Below are positions 3,902 to 12,830 of a DNA stretch of 19,350 bases, one piece after another; position 1 is the first letter of the stretch; each line of letters begins with the position of its first letter. The notes below the pieces were generated by a model. It was not told the DNA's origin and made no database searches. It worked only from the letters and a program-made list of their open reading frames with translations. The translations under genes and the position numbers were made by a program. Origin of the DNA: a virus (Duplodnaviria; Heunggongvirae; Uroviricota; Caudoviricetes); the IMG/VR virus record IMGVR_UViG_2778261129_000006; one strand, written 5' to 3'.

Positions 3902-4173
3902 GTATTCGTATTGAAATTGGCGAACGTTATGTCGTTACCAGTGACAGCTTTCAGTTTATTCTCCACGAGAAAAAGAGAGCGGAAAGCGGTAAAAACGCCG
4001 GTCAGGAATGGCTGGCGGTGGTTGGTTATTACCCGAAATTAAGCCAGCTCGTTTCCGGCCTGATGCATCACGATATTCTTACCGGAAGCGCAAAGTCTTT
4101 TGCTGATTTAAACGCGCAGGTTGAGCAACTCAGCAAGCGTTGTTCAGAGGCTTTTGGCTCATATGGCCGTTAA
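3898..4173 (+). CDS. Small hypothetical early protein (91 aa), P2 orf83-like position
   Basis: ATGA overlap with the upstream stop. Its stop at 4171-4173 overlaps the A start region. Confidence 0.6.
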   Translation: MSIRIEIGERYVVTSDSFQFILHEKKRAESGKNAGQEWLAVVGYYPKLSQLVSGLMHHDILTGSAKSFADLNAQVEQLSKRCSEAFGSYGR

Positions 4174-6445
4174 AGCCTCCGGGCGTTTTGTCCCTCCGTC
4201 AGCATTTGCCGCAGGCACCGGTAAGACGTTTACCGGTGCTTATGCATGGAACGCGCCACGCGAGGCCGTCGGGCGCGAAAGACCCCTTACACGTGACGAG
4301 ATGCGTCAGGTGCAAGGTGTTTTATCCACGATTAACCGCCTGCCTTACTTTTTGCGCTCGCTGTTTACTTCACACTATGACTACATCCGGCGCAATAAAA
4401 GCCCGGTGCACGGGTTTTATTTCCTCACATCCACTTTTCAGCGTCGTTTATGGCCGCGCATTGAGCGTGTGAATCAGCGCCATGAAATGAACACCGACGC
4501 GTCGTTGCTGTTTCTGGCAGAGCGTGACCACTATGCGCGCCTGCCGGGAATGAATGACAAGGAGCTGAAAAAGTTTGCCGCCCGTATCTCATCGCAGCTT
4601 TTCATGATGTATGAGGAACTCAGCGATGCCTGGGTGGATGCACATGGCGAAAAAGAATCGCTGTTTACGGATGAGGCGCAGGCTCACCTCTATGGTCATG
4701 TTGCTGGCGCTGCACGTGCTTTCAATATTTCCCCGCTTTACTGGAAAAAATACCGTAAAGGACAGATGACCACGAGGCAGGCATATTCTGCCATTGCCCG
4801 TCTGTTTAACGATGAGTGGTGGACTCATCAGCTCAAAGGCCAGCGTATGCGCTGGCATGAGGCGTTACTGATTGCTGTCGGGGAGGTCAATAAAGACCGT
4901 TCTCCTTATGCCAGTAAACATGCCATTCGTGATGTGCGTGCACGCCGCCAGGCAAATCTGGAATTTCTTAAATCGTGTGATCTCGAAAACAGGGAAACCG
5001 GCGAGCGCATCGACCTTATCAGTAAGGTGATGGGCAGTATTTCTAATCCTGAAATTCGCCGGATGGAGCTGATGAACACCATTGCCGGTATTGAGCGTTA
5101 CGCCGCAGCAGAGGGTGATGTGGGGATGTTTATCACGCTGACCGCGCCGTCAAAGTATCACCCGACACGTCAGGTTGGAAAAGGCGAAAGTAAAACCGTC
5201 CAGCTAAATCACGGCTGGAACGATGAGGCATTTAATCCAAAGGATGCGCAGCGTTATCTCTGCCGTATCTGGAGCCTGATGCGCACGGCATTCAAGGATA
5301 ATGATTTACAGGTCTACGGTTTGCGTGTCGTCGAGCCACATCACGACGGAACGCCGCACTGGCATATGATGCTTTTTTGTAATCCGCGCCAGCGTAACCA
5401 GATTATCGAAATCATGCGTCGCTATGCGCTCAAAGAGGATGGCGACGAAAGAGGAGCCGCGCGAAACCGTTTTCAGGCAAAACACCTTAATCGGGGCGGT
5501 GCTGCGGGGTATATCGCGAAATACATCTCAAAAAACATCGACGGCTATGCACTGGATGGTCAGCTCGATAACGATACCGGCAGACCTCTGAAAGATACTG
5601 CCGCGGCTGTTACTGCATGGGCGTCAACGTGGCGCATCCCGCAATTTAAAACGGTTGGTCTGCCGACAATGGGGGCTTACCGTGAACTACGCAAATTGCC
5701 TCGCGGCGTCAGCATTGCTGATGAGTTTGACGAACGCGTCGAGGCTGCACGCGCTGCCGCAGACAGTGGCGATTTTGCGTTGTATATCAGTGCGCAGGGT
5801 GGGGCAAATGTTCCGCGCGATTGCCAGACTGTCAGAGTCGCCCGTAGCCCGTCGGATGAAGTTAACGAGTACGAGGAAGAAGTCGAGAGAGTGGTCGGCA
5901 TTTACGCGCCGCATCTCGGCGCGCGTCATATTCATATCACCAGAACGACGGACTGGCGCATTGTGCCGAAAGTTCCGGTCGTGGAGCCTTTGACTTTAAA
6001 AAGCGGCATCGCCGCGCCTCGGAGTCCTGTCAATAACTGTGGAAAGCTCACCGGTGGTGATACTTCGTTATCGGCTCCCACACCGACTGAGCATGCTGCA
6101 GCGGTGTTAAATTTTATAGATGAAGGGATTCTAAGTTGGACCGAGCCAGGCATTATGAAGGTACTTAGAGACTTATTGAGTAATGAACTGAAATGCAGTA
6201 ATCGTTCACAGCAGAGCTTTACTCCTTTCAATGGTCGAAGCTACTTTCCTGCCCCATCCGCCCGGTTGACAAGGCAGGAGAGAAAGACTATCCCGAAAAT
6301 TAAGGTTCTTCTTGCACAAAGTGACATTCAGGCTAGTTATTGGGAGCTTGAAGCTCTCGCTCGCGGAGCTGTTTTGGATTTTGGGCATAAGCGTTTTAAA
6401 TTTGATACCGATATCGACTTTTTTGACAGACAGCGTGAGTGGTAG
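4163..6445 (+). CDS. A: Replication initiation endonuclease, P2 gpA-like rolling-circle initiator (760 aa)
   Basis: Start at ATG 4163 (MAVKASGRFVPP), not the ORF-track ATG at 4121. HUH-type motifs HWHMMLF and AAGYIAKYISK. Length close to P2 A. This is not a P4 alpha primase-helicase. Confidence 0.9.
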   Translation: MAVKASGRFVPPSAFAAGTGKTFTGAYAWNAPREAVGRERPLTRDEMRQVQGVLSTINRLPYFLRSLFTSHYDYIRRNKSPVHGFYFLTSTFQRRLWPRIERVNQRHEMNTDASLLFLAERDHYARLPGMNDKELKKFAARISSQLFMMYEELSDAWVDAHGEKESLFTDEAQAHLYGHVAGAARAFNISPLYWKKYRKGQMTTRQAYSAIARLFNDEWWTHQLKGQRMRWHEALLIAVGEVNKDRSPYASKHAIRDVRARRQANLEFLKSCDLENRETGERIDLISKVMGSISNPEIRRMELMNTIAGIERYAAAEGDVGMFITLTAPSKYHPTRQVGKGESKTVQLNHGWNDEAFNPKDAQRYLCRIWSLMRTAFKDNDLQVYGLRVVEPHHDGTPHWHMMLFCNPRQRNQIIEIMRRYALKEDGDERGAARNRFQAKHLNRGGAAGYIAKYISKNIDGYALDGQLDNDTGRPLKDTAAAVTAWASTWRIPQFKTVGLPTMGAYRELRKLPRGVSIADEFDERVEAARAAADSGDFALYISAQGGANVPRDCQTVRVARSPSDEVNEYEEEVERVVGIYAPHLGARHIHITRTTDWRIVPKVPVVEPLTLKSGIAAPRSPVNNCGKLTGGDTSLSAPTPTEHAAAVLNFIDEGILSWTEPGIMKVLRDLLSNELKCSNRSQQSFTPFNGRSYFPAPSARLTRQERKTIPKIKVLLAQSDIQASYWELEALARGAVLDFGHKRFKFDTDIDFFDRQREW

Positions 6446-6533: not shown

Positions 6534-7757
6534 ATGAGCATGGTTGAATGGATAAGCCACGAGAAAAAAGATAGCCTGATACTATTTGTACATGGATTAA
6601 ATGGTGGTTTGGAAACATGGAACTTTAATAAAGAAATTTCATTTCCAAAACTATTAGCAGAAGATGAAGATATTAGCAACGTATTTGATATTGCATGTTT
6701 CAATTATTTTACTAAATTCACACAAACGTATGCTAAAACGTCAGGATTCTTGGCTCGTATTTTCTTTAAGAAAAATAAGTTAGAGAGAAATTTACCAACT
6801 GATGAAATAGCTGAGTTATTGTATACTGAGATTAGAGTAACACTAAGTGATTACTCTCGAATTATAATAATCGCCCATAGTATGGGGGGGTTAATATCAA
6901 AAAATCTAATTCTAAAAAAAGTTGAGCATGAGGAACAATCTAATATAATTGGATTCATTTCGTTAGCAGTCCCTCACTTTGGTGCTAAATTAGCGAATAT
7001 AACTTCAATGGTATCTTCAAATGCTCAGTTAGTAGATCTTGGATTGTTAAGTGAAGCGACTGATACATTGAATAGGCGCTGGATAAATTGTAGCAAAAAA
7101 CTTCCTATCACTAGATATGTTTATGGATCTCATGACACTATAGTCGATAAAAAAAGCGCATTACCGATGGATAGTGAACGACATAACTCAATTGCAGTTA
7201 ATGAAGGGCATAGCTCAATTTGCAAGCCCGAAAATAGCTCGTCTACAGTGTTTGTTGCGGTAAAGCAATTTATTCAGCAGATAAATTTAGAAGCACCCAA
7301 GAAGATTTGCGTTGAGCGTTTTTCTGATGATAAACAATATGATAATGAGTATTTCGTCTTAAAAATGATTGTCGCAGATATACATCAGGATATCGCTCTG
7401 CATGCAAAGGAATATTATTATAATGCTGAGCTTGCGAGAAATATTTTTACGAGTGATTACGATAGAAAACAACTTGGTCATTTGTATTCTAAAATAAGGG
7501 AGATTTACCAGGAAGAGTATGAGCAATACATTGCAAATTCAATTTCCCCAGATAAATTTATTGCTGCTGTTCATAGACGAATAACCCAGGAGGATAAGTC
7601 GTCGTTAGATTCTCTTATAAAAAGTTTGGAAACGATACATAAGAAAGGAATGTTGCATCAACTGGCTAACAAAAATGACAGGGATATTGTCTGGTCATCT
7701 GAAACCAGCGTAGAAACTTTGGAGCAATTACGGCGAGGTAATCATGAAGAAAAATAA
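6534..7757 (+). CDS. Alpha/beta-hydrolase-fold effector protein with a helical C-terminal domain (407 aa); Lamassu LmuA-like / ABC-3C effector candidate
   Basis: Oxyanion-hole motif LILFVHGLNGG. Nucleophile elbow IIIAHSMGGL (GxSxG). Downstream acid and His candidates (GSHDTIVD, NEGHSSI). AT-rich. First gene of the cargo operon. Confidence 0.75.
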   Translation: MSMVEWISHEKKDSLILFVHGLNGGLETWNFNKEISFPKLLAEDEDISNVFDIACFNYFTKFTQTYAKTSGFLARIFFKKNKLERNLPTDEIAELLYTEIRVTLSDYSRIIIIAHSMGGLISKNLILKKVEHEEQSNIIGFISLAVPHFGAKLANITSMVSSNAQLVDLGLLSEATDTLNRRWINCSKKLPITRYVYGSHDTIVDKKSALPMDSERHNSIAVNEGHSSICKPENSSSTVFVAVKQFIQQINLEAPKKICVERFSDDKQYDNEYFVLKMIVADIHQDIALHAKEYYYNAELARNIFTSDYDRKQLGHLYSKIREIYQEEYEQYIANSISPDKFIAAVHRRITQEDKSSLDSLIKSLETIHKKGMLHQLANKNDRDIVWSSETSVETLEQLRRGNHEEK

Positions 7758-7896
7758 CTTGCCGTATATACCTCTTGATGAAGAGTATAGTTTGAATTTT
7801 GCTATGCTTGCCATTGCTATATCTATATTATCTCATAGCAAAAAAGGAGTGTTGTCATTAGATATTAATAAAATACAAATTTTTATGTATCTGTGA
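7744..7896 (+). CDS. Small ORF (50 aa); possibly the N-terminal part of a frameshifted middle-component gene
   Basis: ATG at 7744 with GAGGT SD 5 nt upstream. Overlaps the hydrolase gene end by 14 nt. Its TGA (7894-7896) overlaps the GTG start of the next ORF. Confidence 0.35.
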   Translation: MKKNNLPYIPLDEEYSLNFAMLAIAISILSHSKKGVLSLDINKIQIFMYL

Positions 7897-8258
7897 TAAA
7901 AAATCCATCAAAAATTGATTGTGCTCTTACAGTTTCGGGGAAAAAGCCTGCTTGTGTCGAGTCCCAGTTAACTTATACAATAAAGAGTTTTTCATCAAAT
8001 GTAGATATCTTATTCGACAATTCCAAAGTGAAATATCTTATAAAAATTATGTCATTGCGGGGATTGCTCTCAGCTGAGAAAAAAAATAATGAGAGTGTTA
8101 AATTATTTTTATCTGAAAAAGGTAAGGAATTTGCTAGCTCATTGACTGATGGATATTTTAAAGAAATAAAACGACTAGCCGAAGCATTGTTACCGCTACA
8201 AGCATTGCCTACCTCTAAGTTAAACTCTGTTATAAACAAAGTCTTCAAGGAGAAATGA
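7893..8258 (+). CDS. Small middle-component protein (121 aa from GTG); LmuC-like candidate
   Basis: Frame opens at 7872; first start is GTG at 7893 with no clear SD. Stop overlaps the ATPase start (ATGA at 8255-8258). A small coupled gene between effector and ATPase. Confidence 0.5.
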   Translation: MIKNPSKIDCALTVSGKKPACVESQLTYTIKSFSSNVDILFDNSKVKYLIKIMSLRGLLSAEKKNNESVKLFLSEKGKEFASSLTDGYFKEIKRLAEALLPLQALPTSKLNSVINKVFKEK

Positions 8259-10225
8259 TGAAATCATATCTCAATATCAATAGTTTGATTCTTGTTGGCG
8301 TTCGTAAAAACTACGTCACTACTTTTTATAAAGGTCTCAATGTTATCTACGGAGACTCTGACACAGGTAAGTCAAGTATTCTGGAGTTTATTAATTATCT
8401 TTTAGGTGCTAGTTCTATAGATTTAGCAGATGAAATAAAAACATCAGTAAACTATGCTGCTCTTGAAGTAGTGATCAATGATACTGTATTCACAATCGTA
8501 AGAGATATCTATGATCATAAAAAATCAATAGAAGTTTATCGTTGTAAGTTTGATGATTTACATAAACACTTTCCGAAAAAATACGCTCCTAATTATAGCC
8601 CCTTATCAAATGTTGATGGCGTTTTTTCAGAGTTTTTACTTGATAGTCTTAATTTTCCAAAAATTGAAATTAAGGTGTCTCCTTCTAAAGCACATTCACA
8701 GATGCGCAGGTTAAGCTTTAGAAATATATATAAATTTGTTTATGTAAGTCAGGATGATATTGGTAGTAAATCATTCTTACGATTGGAGGATTGGTCCCGT
8801 TACGCATTTACGAAAGAAGTTTTTAAATACATGTTCAATGTGTTGGATGAAAGCATCGCCAGACTCCAAGGTGAAATATCTGCAAAAAGTAGTTTAGTAA
8901 CGGAACTAAATAAGAAGTATCAGATAATATCTGAATTTCTTCGCGATACAGACTATGAAACAATTGAATCAATTGATGATGAGATTAATAGGATAGATCT
9001 TATTTTAGAAGAACTTGTTGCAGGTTTGTCTGCTCTCGATAAAAATATGAAAGCGGATTCCATGCAGTATACAGAATTGAAAGATGCCCACAATTTTATT
9101 TCGCTTAAATACAAGGAGTGCATATTAAATATTAGCACGCTTGAGGATAAGATTGATAAATATTCGCGGTTAAAAAATGACTATGATAATGATATTGAAA
9201 AACTCAAAGCGATTAAAACAGCAAATTCTCGCATTGGTGTATTGGATAAGGAAGTATTTTCCTGTCCGATCTGTGATAGCCACATTAAAATAGATGATTC
9301 CGATTTTCCATTTGAAATTTCATCAGAAAAAGATCTTAATGAAGAGTTGAATTCACTTAGTCGACGTAGACGAAATATTAATGACATGATCTCAGAAATG
9401 TCATTTAAATTAAAAAAAGAATCTGGTTATAAAAAAGAATTAGATGAACAACTTGACGAGTTGAGAGAGTTAATTGACGAAGAAAGCCAGTCAATGATTA
9501 CACCATTCTTGACTCAGAGAGATTTTTATATTAAAGAGATATCAAAAAACGAGAAGGTTAGGGAGCAGTTAGTAAAAGATTTGAAGGTTAGAAACCAGCA
9601 AGAGGAACTGCTTGAAAAGCATCAGGTACTGATAAAAGATATTGAAACATTAACTGAACGCTTGGATGCGTTAAAGAAAAACGCACCTAGTATGGAAGGC
9701 ATTTTACAAGGTTTAGGTGATAGATTTAGTCAGTATTTGAAGGGTATTAATATCAAAAACAGAACGGGGATAAAAATCTCTGAAAGATATTACACCCCTG
9801 TTATAAGAGGAAAGGAATATTTTAAAATAACGTCCGGAGGTTTGAGAACTATTTCTTCTATTGGGTATCTTTTGTCTATTCTTGATTATGCAATAGACCA
9901 TAATGTTAACCATCCTTTACTTTTGATATTTGATACGGTTGGTAAATATTTAGGGAAACAGACCAAGGAAAAATACTCAAAAGAAACTCTTGCAGTCGAG
10001 GATGACCTTGAGGGGATGTCAGACCCGATGAAGTATCAAAATATTTATGAGCAACTATTGAATACAGTTCAAAAAGCAGAAAGAAAAAATGTTCCGTGCC
10101 AGATTATATTAGTTGATAATGATTTGCCTAATTCGTTTTCTACTGGTGAACTTTCGAATATTATCGCTCATTATAGCTCGGTTGGTGAGGATGGTTTGCC
10201 TTTAGGTTTAATTGATGACCTTTAA
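8255..10225 (+). CDS. SMC/Rad50-like ABC ATPase with coiled-coil insert (656 aa); Lamassu LmuB-like candidate
   Basis: Degenerate Walker A YGDSDTGKSS (8348-8377). Long heptad-rich coiled-coil region with a central CPIC motif (9263-9274). ABC signature-like TSGGLR (9829-9846). Walker B-like LLLIFD followed by T, not E. CAAGGAGA SD. Confidence 0.8.
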   Translation: MMKSYLNINSLILVGVRKNYVTTFYKGLNVIYGDSDTGKSSILEFINYLLGASSIDLADEIKTSVNYAALEVVINDTVFTIVRDIYDHKKSIEVYRCKFDDLHKHFPKKYAPNYSPLSNVDGVFSEFLLDSLNFPKIEIKVSPSKAHSQMRRLSFRNIYKFVYVSQDDIGSKSFLRLEDWSRYAFTKEVFKYMFNVLDESIARLQGEISAKSSLVTELNKKYQIISEFLRDTDYETIESIDDEINRIDLILEELVAGLSALDKNMKADSMQYTELKDAHNFISLKYKECILNISTLEDKIDKYSRLKNDYDNDIEKLKAIKTANSRIGVLDKEVFSCPICDSHIKIDDSDFPFEISSEKDLNEELNSLSRRRRNINDMISEMSFKLKKESGYKKELDEQLDELRELIDEESQSMITPFLTQRDFYIKEISKNEKVREQLVKDLKVRNQQEELLEKHQVLIKDIETLTERLDALKKNAPSMEGILQGLGDRFSQYLKGINIKNRTGIKISERYYTPVIRGKEYFKITSGGLRTISSIGYLLSILDYAIDHNVNHPLLLIFDTVGKYLGKQTKEKYSKETLAVEDDLEGMSDPMKYQNIYEQLLNTVQKAERKNVPCQIILVDNDLPNSFSTGELSNIIAHYSSVGEDGLPLGLIDDL

Positions 10226-10540: not shown

Positions 10541-11515
10541 TCAGCCGTTGTCAGTGTCCAGTGAGTAGTTTTTAAAGCGGATGACCTCCTGACCGAGCCA
10601 GCCGTTTATCTCACGGATCCTGTCCTGTAACGGGATAAGCTCATTGCGGACAAAGACCTTTGCCACTTTCTCAATATCACCCAGCGACCCGACGTTCTCC
10701 GGCTTGCCGCCCATCAACTGAAAGGGGATGCGGTGCGCGTCCAGCAGGTCTGCGGCACTGGCTTTTTTGATATTAAAAAAATCGTCCTTCGTCGCCACTT
10801 CACTGAGCGGGATAATTTTAATGCCGTCGGCTTTTCCCTGTGGGGCATAGAGAAACAGGTTTTTAAAGTTGTTGCGGCCTTTCGACTTCACCATGTTTTC
10901 GCGAAGCATTTCGATATCGTTGCGATCCTGCACGGCATCAGTGACGTACATGATGTATCCGGCATGTGCGCCGTTTTCGTAATACTTGCGGCGGAACAGC
11001 GTGGCCGACTCATTCAGCCAGGCAGAGTTAAGGGCGCTGAGATATTCCGGCAGGCCGTACAGCTCCTGATTAATATCGGGCTCCAGCAGGTGAAACACGG
11101 AACCGGGCGCGAAGGCTGTCGGTTCGTTGAAGGACGGCACCCACCAGTAAACATCCTCCTCCACGCCACGGCGGGTATATTTTGCCGGTGAGGTTTCCAG
11201 TCTGATGACCTTACCGGTGGTGCTGTAACGCTTTTCCAGAAACGCATTACCGAACACCAGAAAATCCAGCACAAAGCGGCTGAAATCCTGCTGGGAAAGT
11301 CGCCGAAAATCGCCAGTGTGCATCAGTTCGGTCTGTCGGAAGAAACCCGGAAAGACGGTAAGAAAATTGATTATCCGGCGCGTCCTCTGCTCGGCTTTAC
11401 CGGTGAGGATGTGCAGATGATTGAAGAGATTATCCTGGCTCACCTTGAGCGTTAGTTTTATCCAGGCAGAGGCTGATGCGCAATTAAACATTGAGCGGCC
11501 ATGCTGGTCGCTCAA
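10541..11515 (-). CDS. Q: Capsid portal protein, P2 gpQ-like; probably N-terminally truncated
   Basis: C-terminal region recalled as P2 portal. The longest frame starts only at TTG 11515 (first ATG at 11491), with an in-frame stop just upstream. 324 aa against about 344 aa recalled for P2 Q. Confidence 0.7.
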   Translation of the reverse strand: MSDQHGRSMFNCASASAWIKLTLKVSQDNLFNHLHILTGKAEQRTRRIINFLTVFPGFFRQTELMHTGDFRRLSQQDFSRFVLDFLVFGNAFLEKRYSTTGKVIRLETSPAKYTRRGVEEDVYWWVPSFNEPTAFAPGSVFHLLEPDINQELYGLPEYLSALNSAWLNESATLFRRKYYENGAHAGYIMYVTDAVQDRNDIEMLRENMVKSKGRNNFKNLFLYAPQGKADGIKIIPLSEVATKDDFFNIKKASAADLLDAHRIPFQLMGGKPENVGSLGDIEKVAKVFVRNELIPLQDRIREINGWLGQEVIRFKNYSLDTDNG

Positions 11516-11526
11516 TGTTTAGAGGC

Positions 11527-12312
11527 TTATGAGTGATTTTTATTTGATGCTTTGTATTCTACAACCTTCTTATTGGCGTAAAGGAATTTTGTATATGACA
11601 GGAATATAACCAGACCTGAAATGAAATAGATGAGGGATATTATTAATAATGCTTTTTTTTGGCTGTTATTATCTTTAATTTCCTGACTTAACCATTCCGA
11701 GTCCTCCTCGTTTAGCTGTAAGAGCTTATTGCAGGCGATCTCAGGAAGTGTGTCTTTTATAAATATGTTTCGTAGCCTCTTGCAATCGGCAAGGCTATAA
11801 GTTTTATTGAATTCAACTGTTTTATTGTTGAAGGATAAAAGAACTTTGTCACTATAAACATAGTACATCATATTTTTATATGGTATGCCTATGGCATCTC
11901 TTACTATAGCGGATTGTTTGTTGTGTATATAACATGCGAAGAGAATATAAATAATGCTGGACAGAATTACAATTATTGTTTTAATTATGTGTGGTGGTTT
12001 TGTTATGTCACCCCAGAAGCGAGTAAGAAAAAAATACGATGTTTTTAGTTTTCCATCAATCAGCCCCTGCTGTATCATTCTCACATCTTCGATGCCTGAT
12101 ACATTGATTCCGTTAATTATTTTAAATAGTTGAATGTCGCGCCATTTTTTGTCGAGCATTTTTAACTTTCTGTCTGAATACTCAAAATTGAAATGATGTG
12201 CAATAAACCTCATAAGATTACTTTTACCAAAGGTAATAAATGTTAATGCTATTAATAAAAATAGATACAAAGAGATAAACCACCACGCATTAGTCACATT
12301 ATCACTGAACAT
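11527..12312 (-). CDS. Membrane protein with three predicted TM segments (261 aa); unknown function; AT-rich cargo
   Basis: ATG at 12312 with GAGGAG SD 6 nt upstream. Hydrophobic helices at the N-terminus (WWFISLYLFLLIALTFITF), middle (IIKTIIVILSSIIYILFACYI) and C-terminus (ALLIISLIYFISGLVIFLSY). Base composition unlike the flanking phage DNA. Confidence 0.7.
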   Translation of the reverse strand: MFSDNVTNAWWFISLYLFLLIALTFITFGKSNLMRFIAHHFNFEYSDRKLKMLDKKWRDIQLFKIINGINVSGIEDVRMIQQGLIDGKLKTSYFFLTRFWGDITKPPHIIKTIIVILSSIIYILFACYIHNKQSAIVRDAIGIPYKNMMYYVYSDKVLLSFNNKTVEFNKTYSLADCKRLRNIFIKDTLPEIACNKLLQLNEEDSEWLSQEIKDNNSQKKALLIISLIYFISGLVIFLSYTKFLYANKKVVEYKASNKNHS

Positions 12313-12395: not shown

Positions 12396-12830
12396 ATGAA
12401 CACTCTCGCAAATATTCAGGAACTCGCGCGCGCACTGCGCAACATGATTCGTACCGGCCTTGTCGTCGAAACCAACCTTAAAGCCGGTCGCTGCCGTGTG
12501 CAGACCGGTGGCATGTGCACTGACTGGCTTCAGTGGCTGACCCATCGTGCCGGACGTTCGCGCACATGGTGGGCACCTTCCGTGGGGGAACAGGTGCTGA
12601 TTCTGGCTGTGGGCGGTGAACTCGACACGGCGTTCGTTCTGCCGGGGATTTATTCCGGCGATAACCCCGCGCCGTCTGCGTCGGCGGATGCCCTGCATAT
12701 CCGTTTCCCTGACGGGGCGGTGATTGAGTATGAACCCGAAACCAGTGCACTCACGGTAAGAGGAGCTTCTCTGGTGGTGTCTACGTGCTGTTGTCAGCCA
12801 GGTGGATTTGTTAATGGAACGCTTTGTTGA
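12396..12830 (+). pseudogene. V: Baseplate spike gpV fragment: first ~115 codons V-like, then unrelated sequence
   Basis: MNTLANIQELARALRNMIRTG...EYEPETSALTV as recalled for the P2 V N-terminus. The ORF then reads RGASLVVSTCCCQPGGFVNGTLC and stops; P2 V is about 211 aa. Confidence 0.7.

What the first reader, a model, noticed from the sequence alone, without database searches (positions are those of the whole stretch)
7744..7900. Middle-component gene is split across two overlapping frames; possible frameshift in a T5 run
Between effector and ATPase, the coding signal is split. A 50-aa ORF (7744-7896) has a strong SD and ATG. A 121-aa ORF (7893-8258) has only a GTG start and no SD. Both frames are open in 7872-7896, which contains a T5 run (7880-7884). 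Adding one T would join them into one protein of about 168 aa, a plausible size for a Lamassu middle component. This could be a pseudogenizing mutation, a sequencing error in a homopolymer, a programmed frameshift, or two genuinely separate coupled genes.
Basis: seen in the sequence. Interest (0 to 1): 0.5.

Follow-up and report, generated by a model that had tools for sequence, protein, structure and literature searches.

The report
Lamassu lmuC split by TG duplication
The small middle gene (lmuC) of a Lamassu anti-phage cassette in a decayed P2-like prophage of laboratory E. coli B strains is broken by an ordinary 2-base "TG" duplication, not by slippage in the nearby T5 run, so this is most likely a recent loss-of-function mutation and not a recoding device.

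Summary
The split is real. ORF 7744-7896 (50 aa) and ORF 7893-8258 (121 aa, GTG start, no SD) are the two halves of one Lamassu LmuC (Pfam MC4, ABC-3C middle component). They lie between LmuA (alpha/beta-hydrolase plus CTD8, 6534-7757) and LmuB (8255-10225).

The proposed cause is wrong. Alignment with related cassettes shows a 2-bp tandem TG duplication at 7892-7895 (CTGTGATA versus CTGATA). The T5 run did not vary among the four sequences aligned.

- Of 96 complete E. coli genomes with the cassette, 95 match with a 2-base gap, and every listed one carries a single MC4 gene. Only REL606 shares TGTG.
- Homologues in other Enterobacterales, down to 43% identity, are single proteins of 168-184 aa.
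- The break (L50|I51) lies inside a predicted helix, in the family's most conserved motif.
- It is not a sequencing error. The split allele was assembled on at least 1000 contigs, in two haplotypes.
- There is no slippery heptamer and no stimulatory RNA fold.

Best reading: a derived frameshift in one laboratory B sublineage that most likely inactivates the system. A residue-complete two-piece LmuC made by GTGA stop/start coupling is not excluded but is unlikely. The finding is ordinary and of low interest, apart from its practical relevance for phage and plasmid work in B strains.

The parts
6534..7757 (+). lmuA, the Lamassu effector (407 aa). It has an N-terminal alpha/beta-hydrolase (DUF676/PGAP1-like serine esterase) and an ABC-3C C-terminal domain CTD8. 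It is intact.
   Evidence: PADLOC LmuA PDLC03851 E=1.3e-108. Pfam CTD8 PF20284 E=9e-36 at residues 265-389, and DUF676 and Abhydrolase_1 at residues 10-156. RefSeq annotates the same coordinates in strain B and REL606 as WP_000063128.1.
7744..7896 (+). The 5' fragment of lmuC. It encodes residues 1-50 of the 170-aa ancestral LmuC (MC4) and ends at a TGA (7894-7896) created by the frameshift. Its own ATG has a GAGG SD, and it overlaps the lmuA 3' end by 14 nt.
   Evidence: PADLOC LmuC PDLC03869 profile positions 2-47, E=4.7e-13. Identical to residues 1-50 of the intact protein.
7880..7884 (+). It is not the lesion.
   Evidence: The run is identical in the intact alleles of E. coli C/B-type and O157. 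In the survey, the 95 other genomes differ from the window by a 2-base gap. The cassette has 46 A/T runs of at least 5.
7892..7895 (+). TGTG, a tandem duplication of an ancestral single TG (a +2 frameshift). It creates both the TGA stop of fragment 1 and the GTG that opens fragment 2, as a GTGA overlap.
   Evidence: Alignment A1: window and REL606 read ATCTGTGATA, whereas E. coli C and O157 read ATCTGATA. 1 of 96 genomes matches at 100%, and 95 match with a 2-base gap.
7893..8258 (+). The 3' fragment of lmuC. A GTG (read as fMet if used) is followed by residues 51-170 of ancestral LmuC. It has no SD. Its stop overlaps the lmuB start (ATGATGA).
   Evidence: Pfam MC4 PF20290 profile positions 22-132 of 133, E=6e-19. 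PADLOC LmuC profile positions 48-166.
8255..10225 (+). lmuB, the SMC/Rad50-like ABC ATPase (655-656 aa; start at ATG 8255 or 8258). It is intact and has its own AAGGAG SD. The window-private SNP at 8629 is synonymous (S125).
   Evidence: PADLOC LmuB PDLC03862 E=1.2e-233. Weak SMC_N, AAA_23 and Rad50 matches. SD and SNP effect.
4121..6445 (+). P2 gpA-like replication endonuclease. It forms the left border of the P2 gpA-gpQ defence hotspot that holds the cassette.
   Evidence: RefSeq annotation 'replication endonuclease'. Pfam Phage_GPA on the equivalent gene. Hotspot definition in PMC9122126.
10541..11515 (-). Remnant of the phage portal gene (gpQ), truncated. It forms the right border of the hotspot and shows that the prophage is defective.
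   Evidence: RefSeq marks it 'phage portal protein, incomplete, pseudogene' in B and REL606. Pfam Phage_portal.

Best explanation
The window is an E. coli B-lineage chromosome segment carrying a defective P2-like prophage. The prophage's gpA-gpQ defence hotspot holds a type II ('short') Lamassu / ABC-3C operon in the order lmuA (alpha/beta-hydrolase effector with CTD8), lmuC (MC4), lmuB.

In this lineage a 2-bp tandem duplication, TG to TGTG at 7892-7895, shifted the lmuC frame after codon 50. Ribosomes that start at the good ATG/SD (7744) now stop at TGA 7894-7896. The remaining 120 codons sit in the -1 frame behind a GTG with no Shine-Dalgarno sequence.

LmuC is a single-domain winged-helix protein. 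In solved Lamassu complexes it sits at the centre of LmuA1:LmuB2:LmuC1. It contacts the LmuA C-terminal domain, the LmuB coiled coils and DNA, and it helps hold the effector inactive until DNA ends are sensed. Cutting it inside a core helix most likely abolishes or severely cripples assembly, and therefore defence.

Shown: the lesion, that it is the derived state, that it is real, and the family assignments. Inferred: loss of function.
For: 1. Lesion. Alignment A1 shows CTGTGATA in the window and REL606 against CTGATA in the intact alleles. Deleting one TG regenerates the exact 170-aa protein of strain B (WP_236922045).

2. Derived and rare. Of 96 complete E. coli genomes with the cassette, 1 (REL606) has TGTG. 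The other 95 match with a 2-base gap, and every one listed has a single 'MC4' CDS. These include other B strains (ATCC 11303, B, AS19) and 98%-identical O157:H7 prophages.

3. Family norm. 38 of 45 homologues are single proteins of 168-184 aa, down to 43% identity, in Enterobacter, Yersinia, Rouxiella, Xenorhabdus, Erwinia, Proteus and Pectobacterium. The PADLOC LmuC profile is 168 positions long, and the two fragments map to 2-47 and 48-166.

5. It is a real mutation. The 121-aa and 50-aa products each occur on at least 1000 contigs (1226 index blocks for the 121-aa product). They occur in two haplotypes, a REL606 type and a window type.

6. No rescue signals. There is no SD before the GTG, no slippery heptamer, and an unremarkable downstream RNA fold (z = -0.74).

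7. Further decay is tolerated. A secondary A8-to-A7 frameshift in the 3' fragment (P0061) occurs on 12 contigs.

8. LmuC is functionally required in studied type II systems. Point mutants in the LmuB-LmuC and LmuA-LmuC interfaces and in LmuC DNA-binding residues abolish defence (PMC12663957; bioRxiv 10.1101/2025.03.14.643221).
Against: - Loss of function is inferred, not measured.
- The duplication produces a residue-complete split. Fragment 1 is residues 1-50, and fragment 2 is fMet plus residues 51-170. The stop and start overlap as GTGA, so termination-reinitiation could in principle make both pieces.
- lmuA and lmuB remain intact, and lmuB has its own strong SD. The rest of the system may therefore still be expressed.
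- The MC4 type of LmuC and the hydrolase effector have not been studied structurally. The requirement for LmuC is extrapolated from Cap4-nuclease systems.
Confidence: 0.85

Rival explanations
1. The gene is split but functional. The TGTG allele yields two polypeptides (1-50 and fMet+51-170) by termination-reinitiation at the GTGA overlap. They reassemble non-covalently into a working LmuC, so the Lamassu system remains at least partly active.
For: - No residue of the ancestral protein is lost, and the stop and start overlap (GTGA) as in many coupled genes.
- lmuA and lmuB are intact.
- The allele has persisted in two widely propagated lineages.
Against: - There is no SD before the GTG.
- The cut lies inside a predicted core helix and in the most conserved motif of a single-domain protein, not in a surface loop or linker.
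- No other matching genome or homologue has this split.
- Secondary frameshifts in the 3' piece occur.
- Persistence in laboratory culture needs no selection for defence.
Confidence: 0.08
2. Programmed recoding. A -1 ribosomal frameshift or transcriptional slippage at the T5 run (7880-7884), or a +2 hop at CUG-UGA, joins the two frames into one protein.
For: - Both frames are open over 7872-7896, and a T5 run lies in that interval.
- The duplicated UGUG would let a shift of the right size land on AUA (I51). This is inference only.
Against: - ORF1 contains no X_XXY_YYZ heptamer, and the downstream RNA fold is no better than shuffles (z = -0.74).
- T5 is too short for efficient transcriptional slippage (general knowledge).
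- A shift at T5 would replace the invariant Y49 and near-invariant L50 with YVSV.
- The T5 run is present unchanged in the intact alleles aligned, which need no shift. The frameshift requirement exists in only one sublineage.
Confidence: 0.02
3. A sequencing or assembly artefact in the source genome.
For: Only one complete RefSeq genome (REL606, an early Sanger-era assembly) shares it.
Against: - The exact 121-aa and 50-aa products were called on at least 1000 contigs in 1226 index blocks. These include many independent short-read (Logan) assemblies and several NCBI drafts.
- The allele occurs on two distinguishable haplotypes (7839 C/T, 8629 A/G).
- A dinucleotide insertion outside a homopolymer is not a typical platform error.
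Confidence: 0.01
4. The locus ancestrally holds two separate small genes, and the fused form seen elsewhere is the derived state.
For: RefSeq annotates two CDSs in REL606, 'hypothetical protein' and 'MC4'.
Against: - All outgroups have one ORF. These are the O157 prophages at about 98% identity and homologues at 43-87% identity in other genera.
- The Pfam MC4 domain (residues 29-160) and the PADLOC LmuC profile both span the break.
Confidence: 0.01

Closest known systems
Type II ('short') Lamassu / ABC-3C systems, e.g. Vibrio cholerae DdmABC (LmuA-Cap4, DdmB=LmuC, DdmC=LmuB) and Salmonella enterica LmuACB
   Same: - The same three-gene order: effector, middle component, SMC-like ATPase.
- LmuB of about 650 aa.
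- An LmuA with an N-terminal effector plus an ABC-3C C-terminal domain.
- The presumed mechanism is therefore the same: LmuB2-LmuC sequesters monomeric LmuA until DNA ends are sensed.
   Different: - The effector here is an alpha/beta-hydrolase (serine esterase/lipase-like) with CTD8, not a Cap4 nuclease.
- LmuC is of the MC4 type, with no sequence-detectable similarity to any solved chain.
- In this window lmuC is frameshifted, so the complex probably cannot assemble.
P2 gpA-gpQ defence hotspot (old/tin locus of phage P2)
   Same: The cassette sits between the gpA-like replication endonuclease and the portal gene. P2-type phages share only the flank, not the cargo.
   Different: - The cargo is Lamassu instead of old/tin.
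- The prophage is defective: the portal is truncated, the capsid module is gone, and there is a further 4.8-kb tail-gene deletion in the window.
- A recent survey reports that defence pseudogenes are rare in P2 hotspots (PMC13586616). This is one of the uncommon cases, and it arose in a laboratory lineage.
Lineage-specific frameshift pseudogenes of laboratory E. coli strains (e.g. rph-1 in K-12 MG1655; from general knowledge)
   Same: A small indel is fixed in a domesticated lineage, is absent from sister strains, and splits or truncates a gene. Annotation pipelines then call the pieces as separate ORFs.
   Different: Here the lesion is a dinucleotide tandem duplication that happens to create an overlapping stop and start. 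The two pieces together keep every residue.

Membership tests
Lamassu (type II / short; LmuA-LmuC-LmuB) | SMC/Rad50-like ABC ATPase LmuB | tested here: met
   PADLOC LmuB PDLC03862 E=1.2e-233 over residues 2-656, plus nine further LmuB models. Weak SMC_N and Rad50 hits.
Lamassu (type II / short; LmuA-LmuC-LmuB) | LmuA with an N-terminal effector domain plus a Lamassu/ABC-3C C-terminal domain | tested here: met
   PADLOC LmuA E=1.3e-108. Pfam CTD8 E=9e-36 at residues 265-389. Alpha/beta-hydrolase families at residues 10-208.
Lamassu (type II / short; LmuA-LmuC-LmuB) | Small middle component LmuC encoded between lmuA and lmuB as one intact ORF | tested here: not met
   Sequence homology is clear. 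The repaired protein hits LmuC PDLC03869 at E=2.6e-52 and Pfam MC4 at E=4.5e-27. In the window, however, the ORF is interrupted after codon 50 by a +2 frameshift. The cassette is a Lamassu by descent but is not an intact one.
Lamassu (type II / short; LmuA-LmuC-LmuB) | Protection against phage or plasmids that depends on all three genes | not testable with these tools
The requirement for LmuC in studied systems comes from PMC12663957 and bioRxiv 10.1101/2025.03.14.643221.
ABC-3C middle component 4 (Pfam PF20290) | Full-length match to the MC4 profile above the gathering score | tested here: met
   Repaired protein: 95.4 bits (cut-off 28.1), profile positions 1-132 of 133. Fragment 2 alone: 69.1 bits, profile positions 22-132. 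Fragment 1 alone: no Pfam hit.
Programmed -1 ribosomal frameshift site | Slippery heptamer X_XXY_YYZ in the zero frame within the overlap | tested here: not met
   No such heptamer anywhere in ORF1. The zero-frame codons are CAA ATT TTT ATG.
Programmed -1 ribosomal frameshift site | Stimulatory downstream RNA structure | tested here: not met
   Region 7876-7975: MFE -16.5 kcal/mol against shuffles at -14.4 +/- 2.8, z = -0.74.
Programmed -1 ribosomal frameshift site | The two-frame arrangement is conserved among homologues | tested here: not met
   95 of 96 E. coli genomes match with a 2-base gap, and every one listed carries a single MC4 CDS. 38 of 45 homologues in the protein search are full-length single proteins of 168-184 aa.
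Phase-variable contingency locus (simple-sequence repeat) | A long repeat tract with copy-number variation among strains | tested here: not met
   Only one or two TG copies are seen. One sublineage has two, and all others have one.
P2-like prophage gpA-gpQ defence hotspot cargo | Located between the gpA replication endonuclease and the gpQ portal of a P2-like element | tested here: met
   Annotated neighbours in B and REL606. P2 phages match only the flank. Definition in PMC9122126. Cassette GC is 33%, against 52% in gpA.

The most novel reading that the evidence does not exclude
The TG duplication may have created, by accident, a viable two-piece LmuC. The pieces would be residues 1-50 and fMet+51-170, made by GTGA termination-reinitiation, and would reassemble in the LmuA-LmuB-LmuC complex. 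Alternatively, the leftover LmuA-LmuB pair may work in a type I-like, LmuC-independent way. In either case the Lamassu of REL606 and the related window lineage would still be active. It would then be a natural example of gene fission in a defence-system adaptor.
Probability: 0.07. Interest if true: 0.35.

Novelty: already known. Interest (0 to 1): 0.15.

Why it matters
The biology is ordinary: a frameshift pseudogene in a known defence system.

The practical value is modest but real.
- E. coli B strains are classic phage hosts and expression or evolution workhorses. This analysis shows that sister B strains (ATCC 11303, 'B', AS19) carry an intact hydrolase-type Lamassu, while REL606 and the window's lineage carry a broken lmuC.
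- That difference could affect phage or plasmid behaviour between 'B' strains.
- It also offers a natural near-isogenic pair, or a 2-bp repair, for testing an MC4/CTD8/hydrolase Lamassu. No member of that subtype has been characterised structurally.
- Automated annotation calls the two pieces as separate genes instead of flagging a frameshift.

Tried and rejected
- T5-run origin: rejected by alignment and by the sequence of the T6 'repair'.
- Sequencing error: rejected by exact-protein look-ups and the haplotype comparison.
- Programmed frameshift: heptamer scan and RNA fold were both negative.
- NCBIfam gave no hit for LmuC.
- The phage collection contains no copy of the cassette, only P2 flanks.
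- Naming the source strain failed. No complete genome in the collection matches the window in one piece. Literature searches for the assemblies identical to the window found only that MADI00000000 is 'E. coli ECG015'.
- A BL21-lineage origin is an inference. It rests on my memory of Studier et al. 2009, which describes nitrosoguanidine-induced GC-to-AT transitions in the REL606 line and UV-induced deletions in the BL21 line. Two observations fit it: the three REL606-private C-to-T SNPs and the window's private 4.8-kb deletion.
- Literature searches found no paper discussing this lmuC lesion or Lamassu in REL606 or BL21.

Full report
**Observation**

- ORF 7744-7896 encodes 50 aa from an ATG preceded by GAGG.
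- ORF 7893-8258 encodes 121 aa from a GTG whose 20 upstream bases (atacaaatttttatgtatct) hold no Shine-Dalgarno motif.
- The second frame is open from 7872, so both frames are open over 7872-7896.
- A T5 run lies at 7880-7884.

A T5 run is not remarkable here. The 3.7-kb cassette is 33% GC and contains 46 A or T runs of at least five.

**What the genes are**

PADLOC models identify the three components.
- The flanking 407-aa protein is LmuA (E=1.3e-108).
- The 656-aa protein is LmuB (E=1.2e-233).
- The two small ORFs are consecutive parts of one LmuC model, PDLC03869. Fragment 1 covers profile positions 2-47 and fragment 2 covers 48-166 of 168.

Pfam agrees. LmuA has an alpha/beta-hydrolase (DUF676, PGAP1, Abhydrolase_1) plus the ABC-3C C-terminal domain CTD8. 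The middle protein is 'ABC-3C Middle Component 4' (PF20290), and that domain spans the break: it covers residues 29-160 of the repaired protein.

The cassette (33% GC) lies between a P2 gpA-like replication endonuclease (52% GC) and a truncated portal gene. This is the P2 gpA-gpQ defence hotspot described in PMC9122126. P2-type phages in the phage collection share only the flank, not the cargo.

**The lesion**

The 801-nt region around the finding matches 96 complete E. coli genomes. Among the listed matches, only REL606 spans 801 nt and the rest span 799 nt.

Alignment A1 shows the single length difference. The window and REL606 read ATCTGTGATA, where E. coli C/B-type and O157:H7 read ATCTGATA. 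This is a tandem duplication of TG at window 7892-7895. The T5 run is identical in all four sequences.

Removing one TG regenerates exactly the 170-aa protein annotated in strain B and C-type genomes (...IQIFMYLIKNPSK...). Adding a T to the T5 run gives a 171-aa protein reading ...IQIFYVSVIKNPSK....

A 100-nt query centred on the site gives one genome at 100% (REL606) and 95 with a 2-base gap. Every one listed is annotated with a single MC4 CDS.

The duplication creates both the TGA that ends fragment 1 and the GTG that opens fragment 2, as a GTGA overlap. Fragment 1 is residues 1-50, and fragment 2 would be fMet plus residues 51-170. No residue is lost.

**Direction and reality of the mutation**

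Direction. The outgroups all have a single ORF, so TGTG is the derived state.
- O157:H7 prophages are about 98% identical.
- 38 of 45 homologues are single proteins of 168-184 aa, at 43-87% identity, in Enterobacter, Scandinavium, Yersinia, Rouxiella, Xenorhabdus, Erwinia, Proteus and Pectobacterium.

Reality. It is not an assembly error.
- The exact 121-aa and 50-aa products were each called on at least 1000 contigs. The 121-aa product is indexed in 1226 blocks, mostly independent short-read assemblies.
- The allele occurs on two haplotypes. The REL606 type has 7839T and 8629G (L006, L009). The window type has 7839C and 8629A, and L007 and L008 are identical to the window over 6.3 kb.

Origin of the window. 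The window matches E. coli B strains at about 100% identity but lacks 4.8 kb of tail genes that they retain. The three REL606-private differences are all C-to-T. The duplication therefore predates the split of these two laboratory sublineages. It is absent from other B stocks (ATCC 11303, 'B', AS19). I infer, but could not verify, that the window comes from the BL21 branch of the B pedigree.

**Consequence for the protein**

The break falls between L50 and I51, inside the most conserved block of the family. F47, Y49 and P54 are invariant, and L50, K52 and N53 are at least 90% conserved.

An AlphaFold2 model of the repaired protein (40-sequence alignment; pLDDT 81.9, pTM 0.80) is one compact helical, winged-helix domain. 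The break lies within helix 41-52.

In those solved systems LmuC is a single-domain subunit at the centre of LmuA1:LmuB2:LmuC1. It contacts the LmuA C-terminal domain, the LmuB coiled coils and DNA. Interface and DNA-binding mutants abolish defence (PMC12663957; bioRxiv 10.1101/2025.03.14.643221).

By inference, a LmuC cut inside a core helix, with its larger piece lacking a ribosome-binding site, is non-functional or severely impaired.

lmuA is intact. lmuB is intact, has its own AAGGAG SD, and its one window-private SNP is synonymous.

Some assemblies carry a second frameshift (A8 to A7 at 8079-8086) in the 3' fragment on the TGTG background (P0061, 12 contigs). This fits relaxed selection.

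**Rivals**

- Programmed frameshifting or slippage at T5. ORF1 has no X_XXY_YYZ heptamer, and the downstream RNA fold is unexceptional (z = -0.74). The product would lose invariant residues. The intact alleles aligned carry the same T5 run without needing a shift.
- Sequencing error and 'two ancestral genes'. Both are contradicted above.
- A residue-complete two-piece LmuC made by GTGA reinitiation. This is the only rival that the data leave open. I rate it at about 8%, because the cut is in a helix and motif, not a loop, and there is no SD.

**Comparison and novelty**

This is a member by descent of type II/short Lamassu (ABC-3C) with MC4, CTD8 and a hydrolase effector, carried in the P2 hotspot. 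As it stands, it fails the 'intact LmuC' criterion.

A 2026 survey reports that defence pseudogenes are rare in P2 hotspots (PMC13586616). This example arose in a domesticated lineage and a defective prophage. Nothing here is a new kind of element, and the finding is an ordinary frameshift.

Its value is practical. It marks a difference in defence content between commonly used B strains, it gives a ready 2-bp repair experiment for an unstudied Lamassu subtype, and it exposes an annotation artefact, because RefSeq calls two CDSs in REL606.

Noticed in passing
window 12754-12764 (junction): Relative to E. coli B (CP115178) and REL606, the window lacks about 4.8 kb (L004 12963-17761). The missing stretch covers baseplate V, gpW, baseplate J, tail protein I and most of the tail-fibre gene. 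The flanking BLAST alignments overlap by 11 bases at the junction. No complete genome in the collection matches the window in one piece.
   Followed up: partly
window 1450, 3628, 4457, 7839, 8629: The three REL606-private differences (1450, 4457, 7839) are all C-to-T. Two differences are private to the window (3628 A, 8629 A). The 8629 change is synonymous in lmuB (S125), and the 7839 change is synonymous in lmuC (S32). The pattern fits a mutagenised REL606 line and a separate B sublineage for the window. A BL21 branch is possible, but that is inferred from memory of Studier et al. 2009 and is not verified.
   Followed up: partly
window 8079-8086 (A8 run) and 7880-7884 (T5 run): Other lmuC alleles exist in public assemblies. 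An A8-to-A7 frameshift gives ...AEKKIMRVLNYFYLKKVRNLLAH*, both on the TGTG background (P0061, 83 aa, 12 contigs) and on intact backgrounds (P0072 and P0073, 132 aa). One T5-to-T4 allele occurs on the intact background (P0064, 49 aa, 1 contig). Homopolymer indels therefore occur in this gene elsewhere, but they are not the window's lesion.
   Followed up: partly
L010 1641-2865 (Logan SRR6172796): One contig carrying the split lmuC also has lmuA broken into 130-aa and 249-aa ORFs. This is further decay of the cassette in some derivative.
   Followed up: no
L008 (GCA_002872175.1, MADI01000011.1): A draft genome published as 'multidrug-resistant E. coli ECG015' (PMC12291844) is identical to the window over the 6.3-kb cassette region, including the TG duplication and both window-private SNPs. 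That strain is therefore very close to this laboratory B sublineage, at least at this locus.
   Followed up: partly
window 10541-12312: The prophage is heavily decayed. The portal and virion-morphogenesis genes are truncated pseudogenes, and the capsid, terminase and lysis block is missing. In its place is an AT-rich 261-aa ORF on the minus strand (11527-12312) with apparent transmembrane segments. It has no PADLOC hit and only a sub-threshold Pfam DUF6535 match.
   Followed up: partly
window 8255-8260: The lmuB start is ambiguous (ATGATG). RefSeq uses the second ATG (655 aa) in B and REL606 and the first (656 aa) in O157 strains. The first ATG forms an ATGA overlap with the lmuC stop.
   Followed up: no
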